A stretch of DNA of 6,802 nt from a virus (IMGVR_UViG_2563366874_000009), one strand, 5' to 3'. Positions 1 through 6,802 are shown, counted from the stretch's first letter. Program-made: numbers and translations. The notes: generated from the letters alone by a model not told the origin.

Positions 1-102
1 TATATAATTATAGATTTATATAAAAAGTGCTTTACAGGTGGGAAAAAATTTCCTATGGTTATACCCGAAACCGAGCGATACCCGCCCTGGTTAAACCGGA
101 GA
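1..102. repeat. Terminal direct repeat, copy 1 (identical to 6701..6802); implies circular or tandem unit of 6700 bp
   Basis: Exact identity of bases 1..102 with 6701..6802 by direct reading; contains junction motif A and the 5' end of the first ORF. Confidence 0.9.
31..59 (+). promoter_or_regulatory. Putative sigma70-type promoter for the DUF3560-like gene
   Basis: TTTACA (31..36), 17 nt spacer, TATGGT (54..59); lies just downstream of AT-rich motif A. If used, it would exclude ATG 55 as the start and favour ATG 109. Confidence 0.3.
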
Positions 103-108
103 AATCTG

Positions 109-1176
109 ATGAATAAACAAGTAATTATTTCTGACTGGATCAACAACCCTAACAGCCTGTTAAGCACTGATACTGGCTACCTATTACGCCATGTTAATGG
201 TCGTATGGTCAAAAGCGATGAGCACGAAACCTTTTTCTTTGTTGAAGACGATGGGCGTATCTATGAGGATGGTTACTCTTATGAAGCCCAAACTGGTTGT
301 ATCCCTGCGGAGCTGGTGGATGTAACAGAAGATCTGCGCAAAGCATGGCTTGAACAGCAGCAGCGCGGAGATGATTACGTAAACACCTATCAGGAACGCC
401 AGAACGCGCGTCTTGCCCGATATATTGCTCGTGCAGAAAAAGCCAGAAAAGAAGGTGCGGTAGCGCGTAAGCGAGCGCATGACCTGTTGGATGTGATCCC
501 GTTAGGCCAGCCGATTTTAGTTGACCATTATAGCGCGAAAGGCCATCGCCGCCGTTTGTCTAAAGCTGATGCGTTATTCAGAAAAGCGTTTGTTGAATGC
601 GAAAGTAAAGCATCACACTACGAGAGCAAAGCCGCAGGTGTTGGTCGTAATGGAATTTCGTCTGATGATCCTGATGCGCTATTTAAGTTGCTTCGTAAGC
701 TGCAAGGCTGCATGAAGTCACACGTCAAAATGAAGGCCGCAAATAAGGCCATTCGCAAATACAAAAAAGACCAATTACAGCAGCTTTCTGCATTAATCGA
801 TCTCAGGTTTACAGAAAGCGAAGCCAAAGAGTTACTGGCCGGAGATTTCTGTGGGCACATCGGATTCCCTTCATACGCACTGAGCAACAATAACGCCGAA
901 ATCAAACGACTACAGAGCCGTATTAAGGAGCTTGAATCGGTCAAGTCTGTAACAGGAGCACAGCGCGAAGAATACGACGGCTTTTCTATGGAGATAGATC
1001 CAGAGGATAACCGCATCCTGTTTTATTTCCCTGGCAAACCAGAGGCAAACATTCGTTCGCTGCTTAAATCACGCGCCTTTAAGTGGAGTCCAACCCGTAA
1101 TGCATGGGTTCGCAAGATTACTCCAAACGCCCTGGCTGATGCCCGATATCTAAAAGAATCGCTATTGAAAGCCTGA
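109..1176 (+). CDS. DUF3560-like protein (function unknown; family often found in prophage/plasmid accessory regions)
   Basis: ORF 55..1176 in track; GGAG at 98..101 is 7 nt upstream of ATG 109, whereas ATG 55 has no well-spaced SD. Central motif GQPILVDHYSAKGHRRR plus flanking Arg/Ala-rich helices match my recollection of DUF3560. Alternative start 55. Confidence 0.55.
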   Translation: MNKQVIISDWINNPNSLLSTDTGYLLRHVNGRMVKSDEHETFFFVEDDGRIYEDGYSYEAQTGCIPAELVDVTEDLRKAWLEQQQRGDDYVNTYQERQNARLARYIARAEKARKEGAVARKRAHDLLDVIPLGQPILVDHYSAKGHRRRLSKADALFRKAFVECESKASHYESKAAGVGRNGISSDDPDALFKLLRKLQGCMKSHVKMKAANKAIRKYKKDQLQQLSALIDLRFTESEAKELLAGDFCGHIGFPSYALSNNNAEIKRLQSRIKELESVKSVTGAQREEYDGFSMEIDPEDNRILFYFPGKPEANIRSLLKSRAFKWSPTRNAWVRKITPNALADARYLKESLLKA

Positions 1177-1207: not shown

Positions 1208-1240
1208 TATATAGAATTATATATTTATATAAATGTATAA
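1208..1240. repeat. AT-rich junction motif, copy B (ATAGAATTATATA-TTTATATAAA)
   Basis: Shares a 13-mer ATAGAATTATATA and a 10-mer TTTATATAAA with copy A (which has an extra 8 bp ATTATAGA between them); lies between block 1 and block 2. Confidence 0.7.
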
Positions 1241-1253
1241 GGACGCCTCGGCA

Positions 1254-1535
1254 ATGAAACGCAAAATTATTAACCCCCAAGATGTGATTAATTTCCTGAC
1301 CGATCACCCATGTTCAAAAGTGGACGTAATCGCGGAGCACATTGGTGTGTCGCAGAACTCTATGCGTTGCAGACTGAGAAGCATGGTTGCCGAAGGACAG
1401 ATAACAACCAGGAAAATAAATGGTTGCCTGTACTACTCCGCTAAACCGGAATTGCCATTTGGCATGAATCCTAACTCCATGTTGTTTAACACCTTATTAG
1501 CCAAAGTTAAGCCGTTGAGAGGGGCTGTGGCATGA
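1254..1535 (+). CDS. Small winged-helix/HTH-like DNA-binding protein (putative regulator), first gene of the coupled operon
   Basis: ORF 1233..1535 in track; AGGA about 10 nt upstream of ATG 1254, ATG 1233 has no SD. Segment VDVIAEHIGVSQNSMRCRLRSMVAEGQI looks like an HTH. Stop overlaps next start (ATGA at 1532). Confidence 0.45.
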   Translation: MKRKIINPQDVINFLTDHPCSKVDVIAEHIGVSQNSMRCRLRSMVAEGQITTRKINGCLYYSAKPELPFGMNPNSMLFNTLLAKVKPLRGAVA

Positions 1536-1897
1536 GCATCAAAACCCATACCGGAATAATCATTACCAATGATGGTGAGAAAAAAGTGAAGTTGCGCGAG
1601 ACGCCGACAACCTGGTGTGTTGGTCCGAAAGAAACATATCGCAAGGAAGATGGCCGTCGTTGTGGGGCACCACTTTCCCGCCGTCGCCTCCTCTTGAGCA
1701 CGATAAAACCTATCGGGCAGGTTGAGCAACCAACGACTCCGGTAACGAAGATTTCAGACAAGAGTCTGGCAAACCTGATCGCTGATGCGGACAAGGTGCT
1801 GGAGCGGAACACCCCCGTTGCAGATGAGGAATGGTGGCAGGATTTCCGAGCCGCAATGCTAGAGCTTCAGGAACGTCGTCGGGAGGAGTTGAAGTGA
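1532..1897 (+). CDS. Hypothetical protein (121 aa)
   Basis: ORF in track; ATGA overlap with upstream stop and GTGA overlap with downstream start indicate translational coupling; no family recognised. Confidence 0.5.
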   Translation: MSIKTHTGIIITNDGEKKVKLRETPTTWCVGPKETYRKEDGRRCGAPLSRRRLLLSTIKPIGQVEQPTTPVTKISDKSLANLIADADKVLERNTPVADEEWWQDFRAAMLELQERRREELK

Positions 1898-2085
1898 ACA
1901 AGAAAAATGCCGGATGGGTCAGGCCAATGAAGGCGAATAAACATCATTATTTTAATGAAGGTGAAGTAACCAGCATTTGCGGCCGTTGGATGTATTTTGG
2001 TGATTACCGTGAGCCAGACACTTTTGAGAGTCCTGATGATTGCGTGTCTTGTCGCCGGAAATTGAACAAGGTGGCTTCTAAATGA
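1894..2085 (+). CDS. Small hypothetical protein (63 aa) with three Cys
   Basis: In frame with track ORF 1831..2085; GTG 1894 overlaps upstream stop (GTGA) and stop overlaps next ATG (ATGA at 2082). Start codon choice uncertain. Confidence 0.35.
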   Translation: MNKKNAGWVRPMKANKHHYFNEGEVTSICGRWMYFGDYREPDTFESPDDCVSCRRKLNKVASK

Positions 2086-2702
2086 AAGAACGTGGTGTTG
2101 TTTTTAATGACGATATGGTTAGGGCCATCCTCGAAGGAAGGAAGACGCAGACTCGCCGACCTGTAAAAAATGTCAGGGCCGATAACTGCCTGGTTATCCG
2201 TAAACCGACAAAGAAACGCAATGGTGTCTATACCCACGTTATGGATGCACCGGAACATGGTTTATGCCCGTTCGGTAACGTTGGTGATCGCATATGGGTC
2301 CGTGAAACATTCAACGCTTTTTGGCTGGATAACGATGTCATTCAGGAAATCAAAGATGGTGTCTCTCTGGCTTCTGAACTGTGTGATTACAAGGCTGATT
2401 ACTCAGATAGTAGCAAGCCAGCTGAGGGCTGGACCCCGTCGATTCACATGCCGCGCTGGGCTTCGCGTATTTTGCTGGAAATTACCGACGTGCGTGTGGA
2501 ACGGCTGCATGACATGAGCGAGGCAGATGCTAAAGCGGAAGGCGCATCTCCGGCGACGTACAAGATTACACCGCCGGAAGCGGTTTATCGCGTTGGCTTT
2601 GGTGATATCTGGCGCGGTATTTACGGGCAAGAGAACTGGCTATCTAACCCGTGGGTATGGGTAATTGAGTTTAAACGTATTCAGGGGGCAACCAGTGAGT
2701 AA
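2082..2702 (+). CDS. ASCH-like domain protein (PUA-fold; predicted nucleic-acid binding or modified-base recognition)
   Basis: N-terminal MVRAILEGRKTQTRR resembles the ASCH GxKxxExR signature region and DRIWVRE the second conserved motif; assignment from memory of this common prophage family. Confidence 0.5.
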   Translation: MKERGVVFNDDMVRAILEGRKTQTRRPVKNVRADNCLVIRKPTKKRNGVYTHVMDAPEHGLCPFGNVGDRIWVRETFNAFWLDNDVIQEIKDGVSLASELCDYKADYSDSSKPAEGWTPSIHMPRWASRILLEITDVRVERLHDMSEADAKAEGASPATYKITPPEAVYRVGFGDIWRGIYGQENWLSNPWVWVIEFKRIQGATSE

Positions 2703-2952
2703 TTCCGCACGGCTACAGCTTGGTTTTTCACCGCTATCAAAAACCATCGTGTTGGCCAAAATGCGCGATTTAGGTGACGGAACAAAACGCCGTGTAGGCA
2801 ATGATCGCGGTCGTGATGTAACCAACGAGGCCGCACAACTCGTTTGGCATCTTGTCATGGCAGAAGGCGGTGAAATCAATTGGGAGCTGGATGATGGTTC
2901 TCGCATGGTGTTAAGGGCAGAAAAGCAGGGGGCAAACGATGAAAAACCGTAA
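2695..2952 (+). CDS. Hypothetical protein (85 aa)
   Basis: In frame with track ORF 2665..2952; GGGGG at 2684..2688 is 6 nt upstream of GTG 2695, which overlaps the upstream stop (GTGAGTAA). Alternative start ATG 2665 or 2761. Confidence 0.4.
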   Translation: MSNSARLQLGFSPLSKTIVLAKMRDLGDGTKRRVGNDRGRDVTNEAAQLVWHLVMAEGGEINWELDDGSRMVLRAEKQGANDEKP

Positions 2953-3133
2953 AGCAAAGATTCTGTTAGTTCGTAGAAACGCTCCTGGCGTCTGGCAGTG
3001 GGTGAGACTCAGCAACCGACGGATGGGGTTAATGAAACATTACGGGATGATGGATTGTGGTTTTTGCAAAAAGCCCAGCGCGGCGCAAAACCGCTGGAAA
3101 AACCACTGTTATCTGCGCACTAAAGGAGAGTGA
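2939..3133 (+). CDS. Small basic Trp/Cys-containing hypothetical protein (64 aa)
   Basis: ORF in track; GGGGG about 7 nt upstream of ATG 2939, start overlaps upstream stop. Composition is unusual, so it could be a spurious frame. Confidence 0.3.
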   Translation: MKNRKAKILLVRRNAPGVWQWVRLSNRRMGLMKHYGMMDCGFCKKPSAAQNRWKNHCYLRTKGE

Positions 3134-3134
3134 T

Positions 3135-3563
3135 GTGACCACTTTTACCGACAAAGAAATGATTAAAGAAATCAAAGAGCGCATAGGCAGCTTGGACGTT
3201 AGAGACAATATTGAGCGCCGTGCTTATGAAATTGCACTGGCATCACTGGAAGCAGAGCCGGTTGCAGTAAACGACGATATGGCTTACGCATTCCATCACG
3301 CATTGTCAGATTCATCGCTAGGCGCTGATGAAGTAGAGGAAATTAAGGCCGGTTTGCGTGCTGCCTTTGCCAACGTCACTATCCAACCAGAGCCGGTAGT
3401 GCCGGATGATGGGCGCGAAAAGTTCGAAGCACTTGTCAGGTTTCATGCGGGTGATAAAAACCATGAAACATTATTGCTTCGTGCCAACGAAGGGATGAAT
3501 TACCAGGACCCGAATGTTGATCTGGCGTGGATATTCTGGAAGTCCAGTCGTGAACATATATAA
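3135..3563 (+). CDS. Acidic hypothetical protein (142 aa), last gene of the coupled operon
   Basis: In frame with track ORF 3057..3563; AAGGAG at 3124..3129 is 5 nt upstream of GTG 3135. Alternative start GTG 3057. No Cys, so not a Zn-finger Q-type antiterminator. Confidence 0.5.
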   Translation: MTTFTDKEMIKEIKERIGSLDVRDNIERRAYEIALASLEAEPVAVNDDMAYAFHHALSDSSLGADEVEEIKAGLRAAFANVTIQPEPVVPDDGREKFEALVRFHAGDKNHETLLLRANEGMNYQDPNVDLAWIFWKSSREHI

Positions 3564-3759: not shown

Positions 3760-3904
3760 ACATTGCTTTTTTATTGATCGATTAACCACGATATGAAGGT
3801 TTTTTTATGGGGAAACCTTGTTTTAGGTGGTAACTGGGTGTAGTGTTTCATTTAACGTAGTAAAACTGCGTTAAGCGATTACCGCGTAATTTGTTGCTTT
3901 ATGA
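3760..3904 (+). promoter_or_regulatory. Structured leader upstream of the lysis cassette (candidate late promoter / antitermination region)
   Basis: Hairpin AAGGTTT..AAACCTT (3796..3819) and imperfect inverted repeat TTAACGTAG..CTGCGTTAA; several weak -35/-10 candidates (e.g. TTGAAC at 3756) but none convincing. Confidence 0.3.
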
Positions 3905-3936
3905 AGCCCTGCCTTTTTCGGCGGGGCTTTTTTTTT
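3905..3936 (+). terminator. Rho-independent terminator directly upstream of the holin RBS (tR'-like position)
   Basis: 9 bp stem AGCCCTGCC / GGCGGGGCT with one G-U wobble, 6 nt loop, followed by a 9-T run; orientation-specific for the + strand. Confidence 0.6.
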
Positions 3937-3949
3937 AACGAGGATTTCA

Positions 3950-4345
3950 ATGTCAGCAGAACCAATTTCCGGTACGGCCGTTGCTGCTGGTGGCCTGATG
4001 GGGGCCAGCGTTTTTGGTATTGCAACTGGTATTGATTACGGCGTTGTATTCGGGGCATTTGCTGGCGCTGTTTTCTATGTTGCTACAGCGGTGAATATTA
4101 GCCGTCTCAAGCTGATTGGCTATTTCTTTACATCGTTCATTGTTGGAGTGATTGGAGCGCCGTTAGTTGGCTCATTTCTTGCCAAATGGACCAGCTACAA
4201 CGATCGTCCTCTTGATGCACTTGGTGCGGTTATTGTGGCTGCATTGACAATTAAAATCCTCACGTTCGTAAACAGCCAGGATCTCGGTAGCATCTTTGGA
4301 ATGCTTTCCCGCTTACGTGGAGGGGGTTCAAATGGTAAGCAGTGA
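3950..4345 (+). CDS. Putative holin (multi-pass membrane protein)
   Basis: GAGGA SD before ATG 3950; three to four hydrophobic helices rich in Gly/Ala; charged C-terminus; sits immediately upstream of the endolysin. Confidence 0.6.
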   Translation: MSAEPISGTAVAAGGLMGASVFGIATGIDYGVVFGAFAGAVFYVATAVNISRLKLIGYFFTSFIVGVIGAPLVGSFLAKWTSYNDRPLDALGAVIVAALTIKILTFVNSQDLGSIFGMLSRLRGGGSNGKQ

Positions 4346-4628
4346 CCCGTCAGCACTGATTAATGCGGTGCTTTGCACAGTAATAGTAATGGCGCTGATG
4401 CTTTATCGACGGAAAGACTCCAGGCATCGTCCATTTGTTTCCTTTCTGGCTTATATCTACGTCATTGTATACGCCAATGTTCCCTTCCGTTATGTGTTCG
4501 GTCTTTATCAAGAATCCCACTGGCTGGTGGTTATTGGAAATCTGATTACCTGCATCGTTGTTCTGTATTTCAGGGGCAATCTGGCGCGAATAGTTGACGC
4601 ATTAGGGTTTAATCATGACCAAAGATGA
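4332..4628 (+). CDS. Second lysis-cassette membrane protein (holin or antiholin-like, about 3 TM segments)
   Basis: In frame with track ORF 4296..4628; GGAGGGGG SD 5-7 nt upstream of ATG 4332; overlaps holin 3' end and endolysin start. Confidence 0.45.
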   Translation: MVSSDPSALINAVLCTVIVMALMLYRRKDSRHRPFVSFLAYIYVIVYANVPFRYVFGLYQESHWLVVIGNLITCIVVLYFRGNLARIVDALGFNHDQR

Positions 4629-5157
4629 GATTTTTAACAGCGTTCTTGGAAAAGAGGGCGGCTATGTGGATCACCCTGACGACAAGGGAGGCCCAACAAA
4701 GTGGGGCATTACTCAGAACACTGCCCGTGCTCATGGATACCGTGGCGATATGCGCGATTTAACCCGCGAACAGGCACTGGAAATCCTTGAGGCTGATTAC
4801 TGGTACGGACCACGCTTTGATCAGGTGGCCGCATTATCCTCTGATATTGCCGCAGAGCTGTGTGATACCGGTGTGAATATGGGGCCAACAGTGGCGTCCA
4901 AAATGCTTCAACGCTGGCTGAATGTGTTCAATCTGCGTGGGAAGCTGTATCCCGATTTGGATGCAGATGGACGAATCGGTCCACGTACCATTAATGCGCT
5001 GCGTGCTTATCTTGGGAATCGGGGAAAAGACGGCGAACGGGTGATGCTGACGTCGCTGAACTGTACGCAGGGCGAACGCTATCTGGAGCTGGCGGAGAAG
5101 CGCGAGGCGAATGAGTCGTTTGTCTACGGCTGGATGAAAGAGCGAGTGGTGGTATGA
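4615..5157 (+). CDS. Endolysin, glycoside hydrolase family 108 N-domain with peptidoglycan-binding C-domain
   Basis: N-terminal LGKEGGYVDHPDDKGGPTKWGIT is the GH108 signature region as I recall it; stop overlaps i-spanin start (ATGA at 5154). Confidence 0.8.
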   Translation: MTKDEIFNSVLGKEGGYVDHPDDKGGPTKWGITQNTARAHGYRGDMRDLTREQALEILEADYWYGPRFDQVAALSSDIAAELCDTGVNMGPTVASKMLQRWLNVFNLRGKLYPDLDADGRIGPRTINALRAYLGNRGKDGERVMLTSLNCTQGERYLELAEKREANESFVYGWMKERVVV

Positions 5158-5432
5158 CTGGTTTGAAGGCCGTTTTGTCATTTATTGGCACAATTATATT
5201 GGTTGCATTCGGCGCGTTTGGTTTTGGTCGTATGAAGGGGCGAGAAAAGGCCGAAGATGAAGCTGAAAAGCAGCGCATAAATGAGAATGCAGCCGCCGTA
5301 AAAGCCACTGCGGAGCGGCGTATAGAAGTGACAAAAGAGGTGGGCAATGTACAGCAGAGTGTTAACCATATGGCTGATGACGATGTTGATCGCGAGCTGC
5401 GGGAGTCGTGGAAGCGTCCCGGTGGTGGTTGA
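5154..5432 (+). CDS. i-spanin (Rz-like; N-terminal TM helix then charged periplasmic helical region)
   Basis: Hydrophobic segment LKAVLSFIGTIILVAFGAFGF followed by Glu/Lys/Ala-rich sequence; position after endolysin; o-spanin starts inside it in another frame. Confidence 0.6.
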   Translation: MTGLKAVLSFIGTIILVAFGAFGFGRMKGREKAEDEAEKQRINENAAAVKATAERRIEVTKEVGNVQQSVNHMADDDVDRELRESWKRPGGG

Positions 5433-5556
5433 TACTGCCTGTGATTGGGTAAAGCCCATCTACCTGACTGATCACGATATCGATGTTATGGACCGCCAGA
5501 CAAAGAAAGATATTCTGGCTCATAACAGGGCATGGGAAATCAACTGCCCCAAGTAA
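5347..5556 (+). CDS. o-spanin (Rz1-like outer-membrane lipoprotein), overlapped architecture
   Basis: AGAGGTGGG SD before ATG 5347; signal peptide MYSRVLTIWLMTMLIASC with lipobox IAS-C; starts within the i-spanin gene and extends past it. Confidence 0.6.
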   Translation: MYSRVLTIWLMTMLIASCGSRGSVPVVVDTACDWVKPIYLTDHDIDVMDRQTKKDILAHNRAWEINCPK

Positions 5557-5590
5557 TATATATTTCTATAATTATATAAATATATAGTTA
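5557..5590. repeat. AT-rich junction motif, copy C (inverted relative to copy B)
   Basis: TTATATAAATATATA matches the reverse complement of the copy B core (about 17/21); begins directly after the o-spanin stop. Confidence 0.6.
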
Positions 5591-5646
5591 CAACATTCTA
5601 TGCGCTTTTCTCATGGGCGCACGCATCAACCATGTTTGTCTGATAT

Positions 5647-5725: not shown

Positions 5726-5801
5726 GGCCCCTTAGCTCAGTGGTTAGAGCAGGCGACTCATAATCGCACGGTCATCGGTTCAAATCCGGTAGGGGCCACC
5801 A
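5726..5801 (+). tRNA. tRNA with CAU anticodon; closest by memory to enterobacterial tRNA-Ile2 (lysidine-modified, reads AUA), phage-borne variant
   Basis: Cloverleaf read by hand: 7 bp acceptor stem GGCCCCT/AGGGGCC, D-arm GCTC-AGTGGTTA-GAGC, anticodon loop CTCATAA (CAT at 5759..5761), T-loop TTCAAAT, 3' ACCA. The 5' half matches my recollection of E. coli ileX; T-arm differs. Confidence 0.85.
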
Positions 5802-6109: not shown

Positions 6110-6697
6110 ATGGAGGCAATTGCATTGTTTAATCTGATTTATGCAGATCCCCCCTGGGAATACAAAGATAAGTGTAAGGATGGGAATCGTGGAGCTGGTT
6201 TTAAGTATCCAACGATGAAAGCTGAGGATATTGCTCGTATTCCTGTCTGGCAGCTTGCTAATCCTGAATCGTGTTTGTTGGCCATGTGGTGGGTTCCGAC
6301 TCAGCCAGAAGAAGCGTTGCTGGTGGTGAAAGCATGGGGATTCAGGCTTATGACCATGAAGGGCTTCACATGGAACAAATGTGGTAGCCGACAACCAGAT
6401 AAGCTGGTGATGGGGATGGGGCATATGACTCGTGCAAACAGTGAAGATTGCTTGTTTGCGGTAAAAGGCAAATTGCCGACCCGCCTTGATGCGGGGATCA
6501 TTCAGTCGTTTACATCGCCTCGTCTGGAGCATTCTCGGAAGCCTGATGTGGTTCGTGACAAGCTGGTAAGGCTGTTAGGTGATGTTCCTCGTATTGAGCT
6601 GTTTGCTCGCGGTGATTTACCTGATGGTTGGCATGGCTGGGGCAACCAGTGCAATGGAGGTATCCAGTTGCATGATGCTCTCTGGCAAGTGGCATAG
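6110..6697 (+). CDS. DNA N6-adenine methyltransferase, MT-A70-like family (orphan, no cognate nuclease seen)
   Basis: Catalytic DPPW motif (LIYADPPWEY) near the N-terminus followed by MT-A70-like conserved blocks; GGAGG SD about 9-10 nt upstream; stop TAG 6695..6697 abuts motif A. Confidence 0.75.
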   Translation: MEAIALFNLIYADPPWEYKDKCKDGNRGAGFKYPTMKAEDIARIPVWQLANPESCLLAMWWVPTQPEEALLVVKAWGFRLMTMKGFTWNKCGSRQPDKLVMGMGHMTRANSEDCLFAVKGKLPTRLDAGIIQSFTSPRLEHSRKPDVVRDKLVRLLGDVPRIELFARGDLPDGWHGWGNQCNGGIQLHDALWQVA

Positions 6698-6730
6698 AAT
6701 TATATAATTATAGATTTATATAAAAAGTGC
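6694..6730. repeat. AT-rich junction motif, copy A (ATAGAATTATATA-ATTATAGA-TTTATATAAA); also present at 1..30 through the terminal repeat
   Basis: Begins within the methyltransferase stop codon; shares 13-mer and 10-mer with copy B. Confidence 0.7.
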
Positions 6731-6802
6731 TTTACAGGTGGGAAAAAATTTCCTATGGTTATACCCGAAACCGAGCGATACCCGCCCTGGTTAAACCGGA
6801 GA
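6701..6802. repeat. Terminal direct repeat, copy 2 (identical to 1..102)
   Basis: Exact identity with 1..102 by direct reading. Confidence 0.9.

What the first reader, a model, noticed from the sequence alone, without database searches (positions are those of the whole stretch)
2082..2702. ASCH-like reader candidate and orphan MT-A70-like adenine methyltransferase on the same element
ASCH is a PUA-like fold implicated in recognising modified nucleic acid, and the element also encodes an orphan DNA adenine methyltransferase (6110..6697) with no partner nuclease. Together these suggest a phage epigenetic module: self-methylation to evade host restriction, possibly paired with a protein that senses methylation state. 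The genes are about 3.4 kb apart on a linear map, but on a 6.7 kb circle the methyltransferase is only about 2 kb upstream of the operon.
Basis: inference. Interest (0 to 1): 0.45.

Follow-up and report, generated by a model that had tools for sequence, protein, structure and literature searches.

The report
Phage ASCH enzyme and unlinked methyltransferase

Summary

The "6.7 kb circle" is not supported. The window's first and last 102 bases are identical, and this promoter-like repeat occurs three times in ~48 kb phage-plasmids that contain the whole window. The two genes lie 3.4 kb apart. A strong terminator-like hairpin, the lysis cassette and a tRNA separate them.

In 80 matched prophage loci, PmgT-like genes and methyltransferases co-occur no more than chance (odds ratio 1.6, p = 0.58). 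Methyltransferases are simply common in that region. Verdict: gene identifications confirmed, coupled "epigenetic module" not supported, modest interest.

The parts
1..102 (+). Copy of a 102-bp promoter/leader repeat, identical to 6701-6802. It holds a sigma-70-like site (TTTACA-17-TATGGT) at 31-59 and a GGAGA ribosome-binding sequence just before the RefSeq start of the DUF3560 gene.
   Evidence: three direct copies in plasmid NZ_AP022814.1 (1945, 10832, 18087), each just upstream of a gene
55..1176 (+). DUF3560 protein, first gene of the early operon. The RefSeq start corresponds to window base 109.
   Evidence: (PF12083, E=7e-31)
1233..1535 (+). Small protein matching a PHROG family labelled MarR-type regulator
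   Evidence: phrog_1687
1532..1897 (+). 121-aa protein of unknown function. Its start overlaps the end of the preceding gene.
   Evidence: phrog_7520
1831..2085 (+). 84-aa cysteine-containing small protein. Its stop overlaps the ASCH start (ATGA). No CDS is annotated at this position in vB_YpM_39.
2082..2702 (+). PmgT-family protein. It has a YqfB-type ASCH core (octapeptide G19-R-K21-T-Q-T24-R-R26, plus D149 and E153) with two insertions (about residues 28-64 and 76-128). Predicted N-acyl-nucleobase amidohydrolase.
2665..2952 (+). DUF7446 protein immediately downstream, overlapping the ASCH gene end
   Evidence: (PF24233, E=5e-17)
3057..3563 (+). Last gene of the early operon. Its N-terminus is 78% identical to 933W L0065 (EaA-like), a mosaic with Stx phages.
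3903..3930 (+). Strong intrinsic-terminator-like hairpin (11-bp stem, 7 G-C pairs, T-run) between the early operon and the lysis genes
3950..5556 (+). Lysis cassette: two holins, a GH108/PG_binding_3 endolysin, an Rz-like spanin, and an overlapping ORF (5347-5556) in the position of Rz1
5726..5801 (+). tRNA with anticodon CAT. It is a tRNA-Ile2 (ileX-like, AUA-decoding) homologue, not tRNA-Met.
   Evidence: (RefSeq annotates it as tRNA-Ile; 89.5% identical to a chromosomal tRNA-Ile found in 5424 of 5426 genomes)
6110..6697 (+). Stand-alone MT-A70 family N6-adenine methyltransferase (DPPW motif), short form without a PNB-2-like partner
6701..6802 (+). Next copy of the 102-bp promoter/leader repeat. 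In the plasmid it precedes the next operon.

Best explanation
The window is one repeat-to-repeat segment of a ~48 kb myovirus-type phage-plasmid of E. coli and Yersinia (it carries RepA, ParA and a RelE/ParE-type (HigB2) toxin with an adjacent HTH protein). It holds two functionally independent accessory genes.

(a) ORF 2082-2702 belongs to the very large PmgT family, named after phage P1 pmgT. Its core is a YqfB-type ASCH domain that keeps the Lys-Thr-Arg-Glu residues of the N4-acetylcytidine amidohydrolase YqfB. Two insertions of about 37 and 53 residues carry invariant Arg and aromatic residues. I infer that it is a hydrolase removing an acyl group from an exocyclic amine of a nucleobase. 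The most likely substrate is N4-acylcytosine, probably within a nucleic acid such as tRNA. It is made from the early operon that starts at the repeat promoter (31-59).

(b) ORF 6110-6697 is an intact stand-alone MT-A70 N6-adenine methyltransferase. It lies downstream of the terminator-like hairpin, the lysis cassette and a tRNA-Ile2 gene. It most likely methylates phage DNA late in infection to blunt host restriction.

Shown: gene identities, fold, residue conservation, genome context, lack of co-occurrence. Inferred: enzyme activity and substrate, timing of expression, DNA as the methyltransferase target.
For: Fold and closest structure:
- AF2 model with pLDDT 92.8.

Catalytic residues:
- In a spliced-core alignment YqfB K21, T24, R26 and E74 map to K21, T24, R26 and E153 (29% identity, z=6.4 against shuffles).
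- These positions are kept in 341/342, 336/342, 340/342 and 342/343 of the distinct family members that have a residue there.
- In YqfB, K21A, T24A and R26A are inactive and E74A is 100- to 1000-fold slower (PMC6972931).
- All 19 ASCH proteins tested in a 2026 preprint removed ac4C from tRNA, and the Thr ('GKTR') octapeptide marks the YqfB type (doi 10.64898/2026.02.27.708502).

Family:
- 43,418 cluster representatives at 50% identity match at E<=1e-3.
- 44% identity to P1 PmgT, which sits in a C1-controlled operon.

Context:
- The window lies inside 48-49 kb phages and plasmids.
- The 102-bp repeat is present three times.
- Terminator-like hairpin at 3903-3930.

Methyltransferase:
- PF05063, DPPW, PADLOC MTase_II model.
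- 99% identical to the vB_YpM_39 homologue and 73% to the Stx2a-phage P13374 methyltransferase.

Independence of the two genes:
- Matched control odds ratio 1.56, p=0.58.
- 5 of 80 MT-A70-centred loci carry an ASCH-like gene.
Against: - No biochemical data exist for any PmgT-family member.
- YqfB H70 is Asp here (D149). The equivalent of YqfB Y89 is uncertain.
- The protein is twice the size of YqfB, so the substrate may differ from ac4C.
- I could not inspect the model's coordinates to confirm that K21, T24, R26 and E153 lie together.
- ASCH domains can also bind nucleic acid: TRIP4-dsDNA structure 9kyl and ZmASCH ribonuclease activity (PMC5615036).
- PmgT-like genes do lie within 2 kb of a methyltransferase in 30 of 80 loci, and Iyer et al. 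reported ASCH-N6A-methyltransferase fusions and operons (PMC4738411). Some lineage-specific coupling cannot be excluded.
- The promoter and terminator assignments come from consensus scans only.
Confidence: 0.6

Rival explanations
1. The MT-A70 enzyme methylates phage DNA, and the ASCH-like protein is a non-catalytic PUA-like reader that senses the N6-methyladenine state. Together they form an epigenetic module.
For: - ASCH belongs to the PUA-like superfamily, which includes the m6A reader YTH and the 5mC readers SRA and EVE.
- Iyer et al. predicted ASCH as an m6A discriminator from fusions and operons with N6A-methyltransferases (PMC4738411).
- In 30 of 80 ASCH-centred viral loci a methyltransferase lies within 2 kb on the same strand. 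One example is Klebsiella phage 2 LV-2017, with the order MT-A70, cytosine methylase, PmgT-like.
Against: - In matched prophage loci there is no excess co-occurrence (odds ratio 1.56, p=0.58; dereplicated 1.10, p=1.0).
- Methyltransferases occur in 56% of these regions whether or not an ASCH-like gene is present.
- The MT-A70 clade of this window has an ASCH-like neighbour in only 5 of 80 loci.
- In this element the genes are 3.4 kb apart, across a terminator-like hairpin and the lysis genes.
- The catalytic residues are almost invariant.
Confidence: 0.08
2. The ASCH-like protein is a non-enzymatic nucleic-acid-binding protein (an RNA-binding, regulatory or 'morphogenetic' factor). On this view the conserved octapeptide serves binding or fold stability, not catalysis.
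For: - Some homologues are annotated 'RNA binding protein', 'virion protein' or 'morphogenetic protein'.
- The insertions are rich in invariant Arg residues (R74, R125, R129).
- TRIP4 ASCH has been crystallised with dsDNA (9kyl).
Against: - The 'morphogenetic' label is only the putative P1 pmg naming.
- Near-invariance of exactly the residues needed for YqfB activity, Thr24 and Glu153 included, is hard to explain by binding alone.
- Every ASCH protein tested so far has deacetylase activity.
Confidence: 0.2
3. The MT-A70 enzyme is not a DNA methyltransferase but an RNA (16S rRNA) methyltransferase, like its Stx-phage relative M.EcoPA8orf6770P. It would tune host translation or prophage induction and would not protect DNA.
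For: - The window enzyme is 73% identical to the Stx2a-phage methyltransferase (P13374 gp37). I infer that this is the group containing phiPA8's enzyme.
- The phiPA8 enzyme together with the winged-helix partner PNB-2 preferred 16S rRNA and 30S subunits over DNA (PMC10810198).
- The closest solved relatives include METTL3.
Against: - The element has no homologue of the upstream ORF08 (the PNB-2 position) of P13374.
- The enzyme is a short form (195 aa against 208 aa). That paper says short isoforms lack PNB-2.
- The best PDB matches are the Tetrahymena MT-A70 family proteins of entries 7f4r and 7f4l.
Confidence: 0.15
4. The window is a real 6.7 kb circular molecule, for example a circle excised by recombination between the 102-bp repeats. 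On such a circle the methyltransferase would sit just upstream of the early operon.
For: - Terminal 102-bp identity.
- Several assemblies contain contigs of about 6.7-7.0 kb that carry this protein (longest contigs of 6744, 6784 and 6996 bp).
Against: - The repeat occurs three times in complete 48-49 kb genomes that hold the whole window in order. Short-read assemblers break or circularise at such repeats.
- I recognised no replication initiator, partition or packaging gene in the window; these lie elsewhere in the plasmid.
Confidence: 0.03

Closest known systems
E. coli YqfB, N4-acetylcytidine amidohydrolase (ASCH domain; PDB 9KYF/1TE7)
   Different: 206 aa instead of 103, with two insertions (about 28-64 and 76-128) that carry family-invariant residues. 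YqfB H70 is Asp here. The gene is phage-borne and sits in an early accessory operon. Activity and substrate are untested.
Phage P1 PmgT (and P7 Upf86.8/87.4), 'putative morphogenetic function'
   Same: True sequence homologue: 44% identity over residues 1-192 to P1 PmgT and 48% over 1-206 to P7. Both are in phage-plasmids, and in P1 the gene is in a C1-repressed sigma-70 operon.
   Different: P1 PmgT is annotated as 309 aa. Its function is unknown, and the 'morphogenetic' label is only a naming convention. I found no paper in the searchable library that deals with phage PmgT, so none linking it to ASCH or YqfB.
Pfam ASCH (PF04266) and the PUA-like superfamily, including 'GKER' ASCH proteins (TthASCH, EOLA1, TRIP4)
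   Same: [quoted passage not shown]
   Different: Below the Pfam gathering score (15.4 against 21.2 bits). It has Thr, not Glu, in the octapeptide, and large insertions.
Stx-phage MT-A70 methyltransferases (P13374 gp37; the M.EcoGV and M.EcoPA8orf6770P group, by inference)
   Same: 73% identical over residues 7-181, DPPW motif, prophage-borne orphan enzyme.
   Different: Short C-terminus (195 against 208 aa). No upstream PNB-2/ORF08-like partner. It lies after the lysis cassette, not near int/xis. Its target (DNA motif or rRNA) is unknown.
ASCH-N6A-methyltransferase fusions and operons described by Iyer, Zhang and Aravind (BioEssays 2016)
   Same: An ASCH-fold protein and an N6-adenine methyltransferase are encoded on one mobile element.
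   Different: Here they are not fused, not adjacent and not in one operon. In matched loci they are statistically independent.

Membership tests
ASCH domain (Pfam PF04266) | Sequence match to the family HMM at or above the gathering score | tested here: not met
   E=0.03, 15.4 bits against a cut-off of 21.2, and only residues 132-157 match. 50 of 95 homologues give weak hits, best E=1.3e-4.
ASCH domain (Pfam PF04266) | [quoted passage not shown] | tested here: met
ASCH domain (Pfam PF04266) | N-terminal octapeptide GxKxx[E/T]xR | tested here: met
   G19-R-K21-T-Q-T24-R-R26. K21 and R26 are invariant and G19 and T24 at least 90% conserved in alignment A1; counts of 326-341 in 346 distinct members.
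YqfB-type N4-acylcytidine amidohydrolase | Residues Lys21, Thr24, Arg26 and Glu74, whose mutation inactivates or strongly slows YqfB | tested here: met
   They map to K21, T24, R26 and E153, each conserved in at least 98% of members. The mutagenesis basis is in PMC6972931. The spatial clustering of these residues in the model was not inspected.
YqfB-type N4-acylcytidine amidohydrolase | Accessory residues His70 and Tyr89 | tested here: not met
   H70 aligns with D149. Y89 aligns with W177 in a gapped region, so that equivalence is uncertain.
YqfB-type N4-acylcytidine amidohydrolase | Compact single domain of about 103 aa | tested here: not met
   206 aa with two insertions of about 37 and 53 residues.
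YqfB-type N4-acylcytidine amidohydrolase | Hydrolysis of ac4C or N4-acylcytosines | not testable with these tools
   Needs an enzyme assay.
P1 PmgT family (phrog_874) | Full-length sequence homology | tested here: met
   phrog_874 E=1.1e-83. tblastn to P1 pmgT gives 44% identity, E=3e-41.
m6A readers of the PUA-like superfamily (YTH) | Closest structural similarity to YTH-type domains | tested here: not met
MT-A70 methyltransferase (PF05063) | HMM match above the gathering score plus the catalytic DPPW motif | tested here: met
   82.9 bits against a cut-off of 23.9, full profile coverage. 'YADPPWEY' at residues 11-18.
MT-A70 / PNB-2 16S rRNA methyltransferase holoenzyme (phiPA8) | Co-encoded winged-helix partner directly upstream, and the long C-terminus | tested here: not met
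   No homologue of P13374 ORF08 in the window or in the 48 kb plasmid. The protein is 195 aa against 208 aa.
Restriction-modification system | Cognate nuclease next to the methyltransferase | tested here: inconclusive
   Upstream there is a tRNA and 308 nt in which no gene is annotated. Downstream in the plasmid there are small ORFs with no Pfam hit, then ParB-like genes. Absence of a recognisable nuclease is not proof.
Coupled methyltransferase-plus-reader module | Same operon or adjacency in this element | tested here: not met
   3.4 kb apart, with terminator-like hairpin 3903-3930, the lysis cassette and a tRNA between them.
Coupled methyltransferase-plus-reader module | Co-occurrence across phages beyond the background of the region | tested here: not met
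   Matched excisionase-centred loci: 11 with both, 6 ASCH only, 34 methyltransferase only, 29 neither (odds ratio 1.56, p=0.58; dereplicated odds ratio 1.10, p=1.0). 5 of 80 MT-A70-centred loci carry an ASCH-like gene.

The most novel reading that the evidence does not exclude
The PmgT family has more than 43,000 clusters at 50% identity, is present in P1 and many temperate phages and prophages, and is still listed as 'unknown function' in PHROGs. It may be a phage-borne class of nucleic-acid deacylases. On this reading the YqfB-type core removes an acyl mark (ac4C or a related N-acyl base) from host tRNA or rRNA, or from nucleic acid acylated by a GNAT-type defence or toxin system. The two family-specific insertions would provide the grip on the polynucleotide. 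Phages would then carry an 'eraser' of a host RNA or DNA modification as a common early gene.
Probability: 0.25. Interest if true: 0.65.

Novelty: new variant of a known kind. Interest (0 to 1): 0.3.

Why it matters
As posed, the finding is ordinary. An orphan phage methyltransferase and an unrelated accessory gene sit on a phage-plasmid lineage already present in the databases, and the ASCH-methyltransferase idea was already in the literature.

The part worth keeping is the assignment of P1 PmgT and its very large family to the YqfB type of ASCH enzymes, with the residues needed for activity intact. ASCH proteins have only recently been shown to erase N4-acetylcytidine. A widespread early phage gene of that type would be a cheap and direct target for testing whether phages edit host RNA or DNA acyl marks. 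It would also replace the uninformative 'morphogenetic protein' and 'hypothetical' labels on many thousands of database entries.

Tried and rejected
1. tRNA link. ac4C in E. coli sits on elongator tRNA-Met (my own knowledge), and ARAGORN called the window tRNA 'Met'. The tRNA is in fact an ileX-like tRNA-Ile2. Among the first 60 ASCH-centred loci only the close relative L008 has a tRNA(CAT). Rejected.
2. PNB-2 link. I asked whether the genes next to the ASCH gene (DUF7446, the 64-aa ORF) are the PNB-1 or PNB-2 partners of the Stx-phage MT-A70 enzyme. 933W L0065-L0068 and P13374 ORF08 gave no such match. Only the N-terminus of the 168-aa ORF resembles the EaA-like L0065. Rejected.
3. First control. 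YqaJ-centred loci gave 11 of 80 with a methyltransferase, against 38 of 80 next to ASCH (p=6e-6). This suggested enrichment. Those loci are mostly environmental contigs of other phage types, and the matched excisionase control removed the effect.
4. Sequence-only comparisons. phmmer and a family profile against PDB sequences found nothing. hhalign of the family against YqfB aligned only the 25 N-terminal columns (probability 18%) because of the insertions. A cheap-gap global alignment was messy. A spliced core guided by the model's secondary structure was needed.
5. NCBIfam and PADLOC gave no hit for the ASCH-like protein.
6. The afdb50 fold library was unavailable.
7. The 5' leader inside the 102-bp repeat folds no better than shuffles (z=-1.7) and matches no Rfam family.
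8. A literature search for PmgT returned only unrelated papers.

Full report
**What is in the window**

The window holds a run of + strand genes.
- An early-type operon comes first: a DUF3560 protein (55/109-1176), a small protein matching a MarR-type regulator family (1233-1535), a 121-aa and an 84-aa protein, the ASCH-like ORF (2082-2702), a DUF7446 protein (2665-2952), a 64-aa ORF (2939-3133) and a 168-aa ORF (3057-3563).
- Most neighbouring genes overlap at their start and stop codons, for example the ATGA overlap at 2082.
- Next come a lysis cassette (two holins, a GH108 endolysin, an Rz-like spanin and an overlapping ORF in the Rz1 position; 3950-5556), a tRNA (5726-5801) and the MT-A70 gene (6110-6697).

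**The element is not a 6.7 kb circle**

- Megablast places the whole window inside Yersinia phage vB_YpM_39 (49,027 bp, 97% identity). It also lies inside 41 E. coli and Salmonella plasmid records, those listed being about 48-52 kb.
- One such plasmid, NZ_AP022814.1, encodes RepA, ParA, a RelE/ParE-type toxin with an adjacent HTH protein, a terminase, portal, capsid, contractile tail and baseplate. It is a myovirus-type phage-plasmid.
- The window's first 102 bases are identical to its last 102.
- This unit carries the only two sigma-70-like sites found by the scan (TTTACA-17-TATGGT at 31-59 and 6731-6759). It occurs three times as direct repeats in the plasmid (1945, 10832 and 18087), each just upstream of a gene. 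It also occurs three times in the stretch of the Yersinia phage that I fetched.
- The window is therefore the stretch between two copies of a repeated promoter/leader. An assembly would break or close on itself at such a repeat. Contigs of about 6.7-7.0 kb carrying this protein recur in public assemblies.
- I recognised no replication, partition or packaging gene in the window.

**The ASCH assignment**

- By sequence alone it fails. Pfam ASCH scores E=0.03 and 15.4 bits, below the 21.2-bit cut-off, and covers 26 residues. PHROGs lists the family (phrog_874) as unknown. NCBIfam, PADLOC and PDB sequence searches find nothing.
- The family is very large: 43,418 cluster representatives at 50% identity match at E<=1e-3. 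Half of 95 diverse members give weak ASCH hits.
- An AlphaFold2 model built on that alignment is confident (pLDDT 92.8, pTM 0.85).
- Foldseek gives the same top hits. The best named hit among viral models is an ASCH domain protein. The fold is ASCH.

**Enzyme or reader**

- YqfB is an N4-acetylcytidine amidohydrolase. K21A, T24A and R26A mutants are inactive, and E74A is 100- to 1000-fold slower (PMC6972931).
- The window protein has G19-R-K21-T-Q-T24-R-R26. This is the Thr-type ('GKTR') octapeptide that a 2026 preprint uses to define the YqfB type. That preprint also reports that all 19 ASCH proteins tested removed ac4C from tRNA.
- hhalign aligns only this N-terminal motif, because two insertions interrupt the core.
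- I removed the insertions as guided by the model's secondary structure. The core then aligns with YqfB at 29% identity (z=6.4 against shuffles). YqfB K21, T24, R26, G36-D37, H70 and E74 map to K21, T24, R26, G68-D69, D149 and E153. The C-terminal strand VIEFK is shared. I checked my YqfB sequence against PDB 1te7.
- Among 346 distinct family members, of those with a residue at each position, K21 is kept in 341/342, T24 in 336/342, R26 in 340/342 and E153 in 342/343.
- The insertions (about 28-64 and 76-128) contain further near-invariant residues: G65, G68-D69, W72, R74-E75, Y103 and the I-H-M-P-R-W-A-S-R stretch at 121-129.
- I read this as an active YqfB-type hydrolase with an enlarged substrate-binding surface. 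Catalytic activity and the substrate are inferences. I could not inspect the model's coordinates.

**What family it is**

tblastn against phage genomes shows 44% identity to phage P1 PmgT and 48% to P7 Upf86.8/87.4. This explains the 'morphogenetic protein' names seen in databases. In P1, pmgT heads a C1-repressed sigma-70 operon (pmgT-pmgU-pmgV), and its function is only 'putative'. I found no relevant paper on PmgT in the searchable library.

**The methyltransferase**

- The MT-A70 domain is complete (PF05063, E=3.4e-23) with DPPW at residues 13-16. It also matches phrog_359 'DNA methyltransferase' and a PADLOC type II methyltransferase model.
- The closest solved chains are Tetrahymena MT-A70 family proteins, followed by METTL3.
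- It is 99% identical to the vB_YpM_39 homologue and 73% to the methyltransferase of Stx2a phages such as P13374.
- A related Stx-phage enzyme (M.EcoPA8orf6770P) was reported to act on 16S rRNA together with an upstream winged-helix partner, PNB-2. According to that paper, the similar M.EcoGV methylated GATC in DNA when overproduced (PMC10810198).
- The window enzyme is a short form (195 against 208 aa). The element has no homologue of the upstream partner-position ORF of P13374. The paper notes that short isoforms lack PNB-2.
- I therefore favour a stand-alone DNA adenine methyltransferase, but the target is untested.
- No nuclease is recognisable next to it.
- Further downstream, in front of the terminase, the plasmid encodes a second methyltransferase, a ParB_N-Methyltransf_23 fusion.

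**Are the two genes coupled?**

- In this element they are not adjacent. A strong terminator-like hairpin lies between the early operon and the lysis genes (3903-3930; 11-bp stem, 7 G-C pairs, T-run). The scan finds no promoter-like site in front of the methyltransferase.
- I fetched 80 viral loci centred on PmgT-like genes. 11 have an MT-A70 gene, 20 a Dam-type (PF05869) gene and 9 a third methyltransferase type. 38 loci have at least one. 30 of the 40 methyltransferase genes lie within 2 kb on the same strand, against 11.8 expected for uniform placement.
- This looked like support for the ASCH-methyltransferase association published by Iyer et al. (PMC4738411). A first control, YqaJ-centred loci, had only 11 of 80 with a methyltransferase. 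That control sampled mostly environmental phages of other types.
- PmgT-like genes usually sit in the accessory region between the recombination genes and xis/int. I therefore took 80 loci centred on the DUF1233 excisionase of the same kind of prophage.
- In those loci methyltransferases of the three families occur in 45 and PmgT-like genes in 17. Both occur in 11, against 9.6 expected. The odds ratio is 1.56 (p=0.58). After dereplication to 76 loci it is 1.10 (p=1.0).
- Of 80 loci centred on the window's MT-A70 clade, only 5 have a PmgT-like gene, and two of those are contigs already counted.
- So methyltransferases are common in that region, and PmgT-like genes share it without specific linkage.
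- Limits: only three methyltransferase families were modelled, the loci span only ±10 kb, and the samples are not phylogenetically corrected.

**Conclusion**

- The most likely picture is two independent accessory genes of a phage-plasmid lineage already present in the databases: a predicted YqfB-type deacylase of the PmgT family, expressed early, and an orphan MT-A70 adenine methyltransferase downstream of the lysis genes.
- The most interesting residue is that a very common, unannotated phage family keeps the catalytic apparatus of an RNA-modification eraser.

Noticed in passing
window 1-102 and 6701-6802; L082 1945-2046, 10832-10933, 18087-18188: A 102-bp unit is repeated three times in the 48 kb phage-plasmid, each copy just upstream of a gene. 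It consists of an AT-rich stretch, a sigma-70-like TTTACA-17-TATGGT site, a 45-nt leader and GGAGA. It looks like one regulatory cassette driving three operons. The leader does not fold better than shuffles (z=-1.7) and has no Rfam match.
   Followed up: partly
window 2-31, 1211-1240, 5550-5603, 6694-6731: A family of AT-rich ~30-nt repeats (consensus near ATAGAATTATATATTTATATAAA) lies in intergenic gaps: before the repeat promoter, before the gene at 1233, and as overlapping copies after the lysis cassette. They could be binding sites for a regulator or a DNA-bending protein.
   Followed up: no
window 5726-5801: ARAGORN calls the tRNA 'Met' (anticodon CAT), but it is an ileX-like tRNA-Ile2, presumably lysidine-modified and AUA-decoding. 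RefSeq annotates the identical plasmid copy as tRNA-Ile. It is 89.5% identical to a chromosomal tRNA-Ile present in 5424 of 5426 E. coli genomes.
   Followed up: yes
window 3903-3930: A strong intrinsic-terminator-like hairpin sits just upstream of the holin gene, and I recognised no antiterminator gene in the window. How the lysis and late genes are turned on is unclear.
   Followed up: no
L082 20868-22241 (plasmid NZ_AP022814.1): The same element encodes a second methyltransferase, a 457-aa ParB_N-Methyltransf_23 fusion. It is flanked by two more ParB/Srx-like genes in front of the terminase.
   Followed up: partly
L243 5470-5835 (phage 933W L0064): The 933W gene L0064, close to xis/int, contains a classical Glu-type ASCH octapeptide (GEKTEEYR). 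Stx phages therefore appear to carry a small canonical ASCH protein in the same accessory region. This was seen by eye in the translation and was not tested with an HMM.
   Followed up: no
L040, L046, L058 (alignment A2); L247 2057-2713: Several MT-A70 genes that sit next to PmgT-like genes have DPAW instead of the catalytic DPPW motif. Whether these are active is unknown.
   Followed up: no
window 2925-3235: This stretch has 93% nucleotide identity to the int-proximal 'ea' region of many Stx-converting phages (933W, VT2-Sakai and the PA phages). This shows recent mosaic exchange between the phage-plasmid and lambdoid Stx phages.
   Followed up: partly
L247 1626-4872 (Klebsiella phage 2 LV-2017): The gene order is: ORF08-like protein (related to the 'regulatory protein' upstream of the P13374 methyltransferase), MT-A70, cytosine methylase, a small ORF, PmgT-like, a DksA/TraR zinc-finger protein, excisionase, integrase. 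This compact accessory block recurs in many enterobacterial prophages.
   Followed up: partly
window 1831-2085: An 84-aa ORF with cysteine pairs (…SICGRW…CVSCRRK…, phrog_2358) lies just upstream of the ASCH gene. No CDS is annotated at this position in vB_YpM_39, so it may be an indel cassette within the lineage.
   Followed up: no
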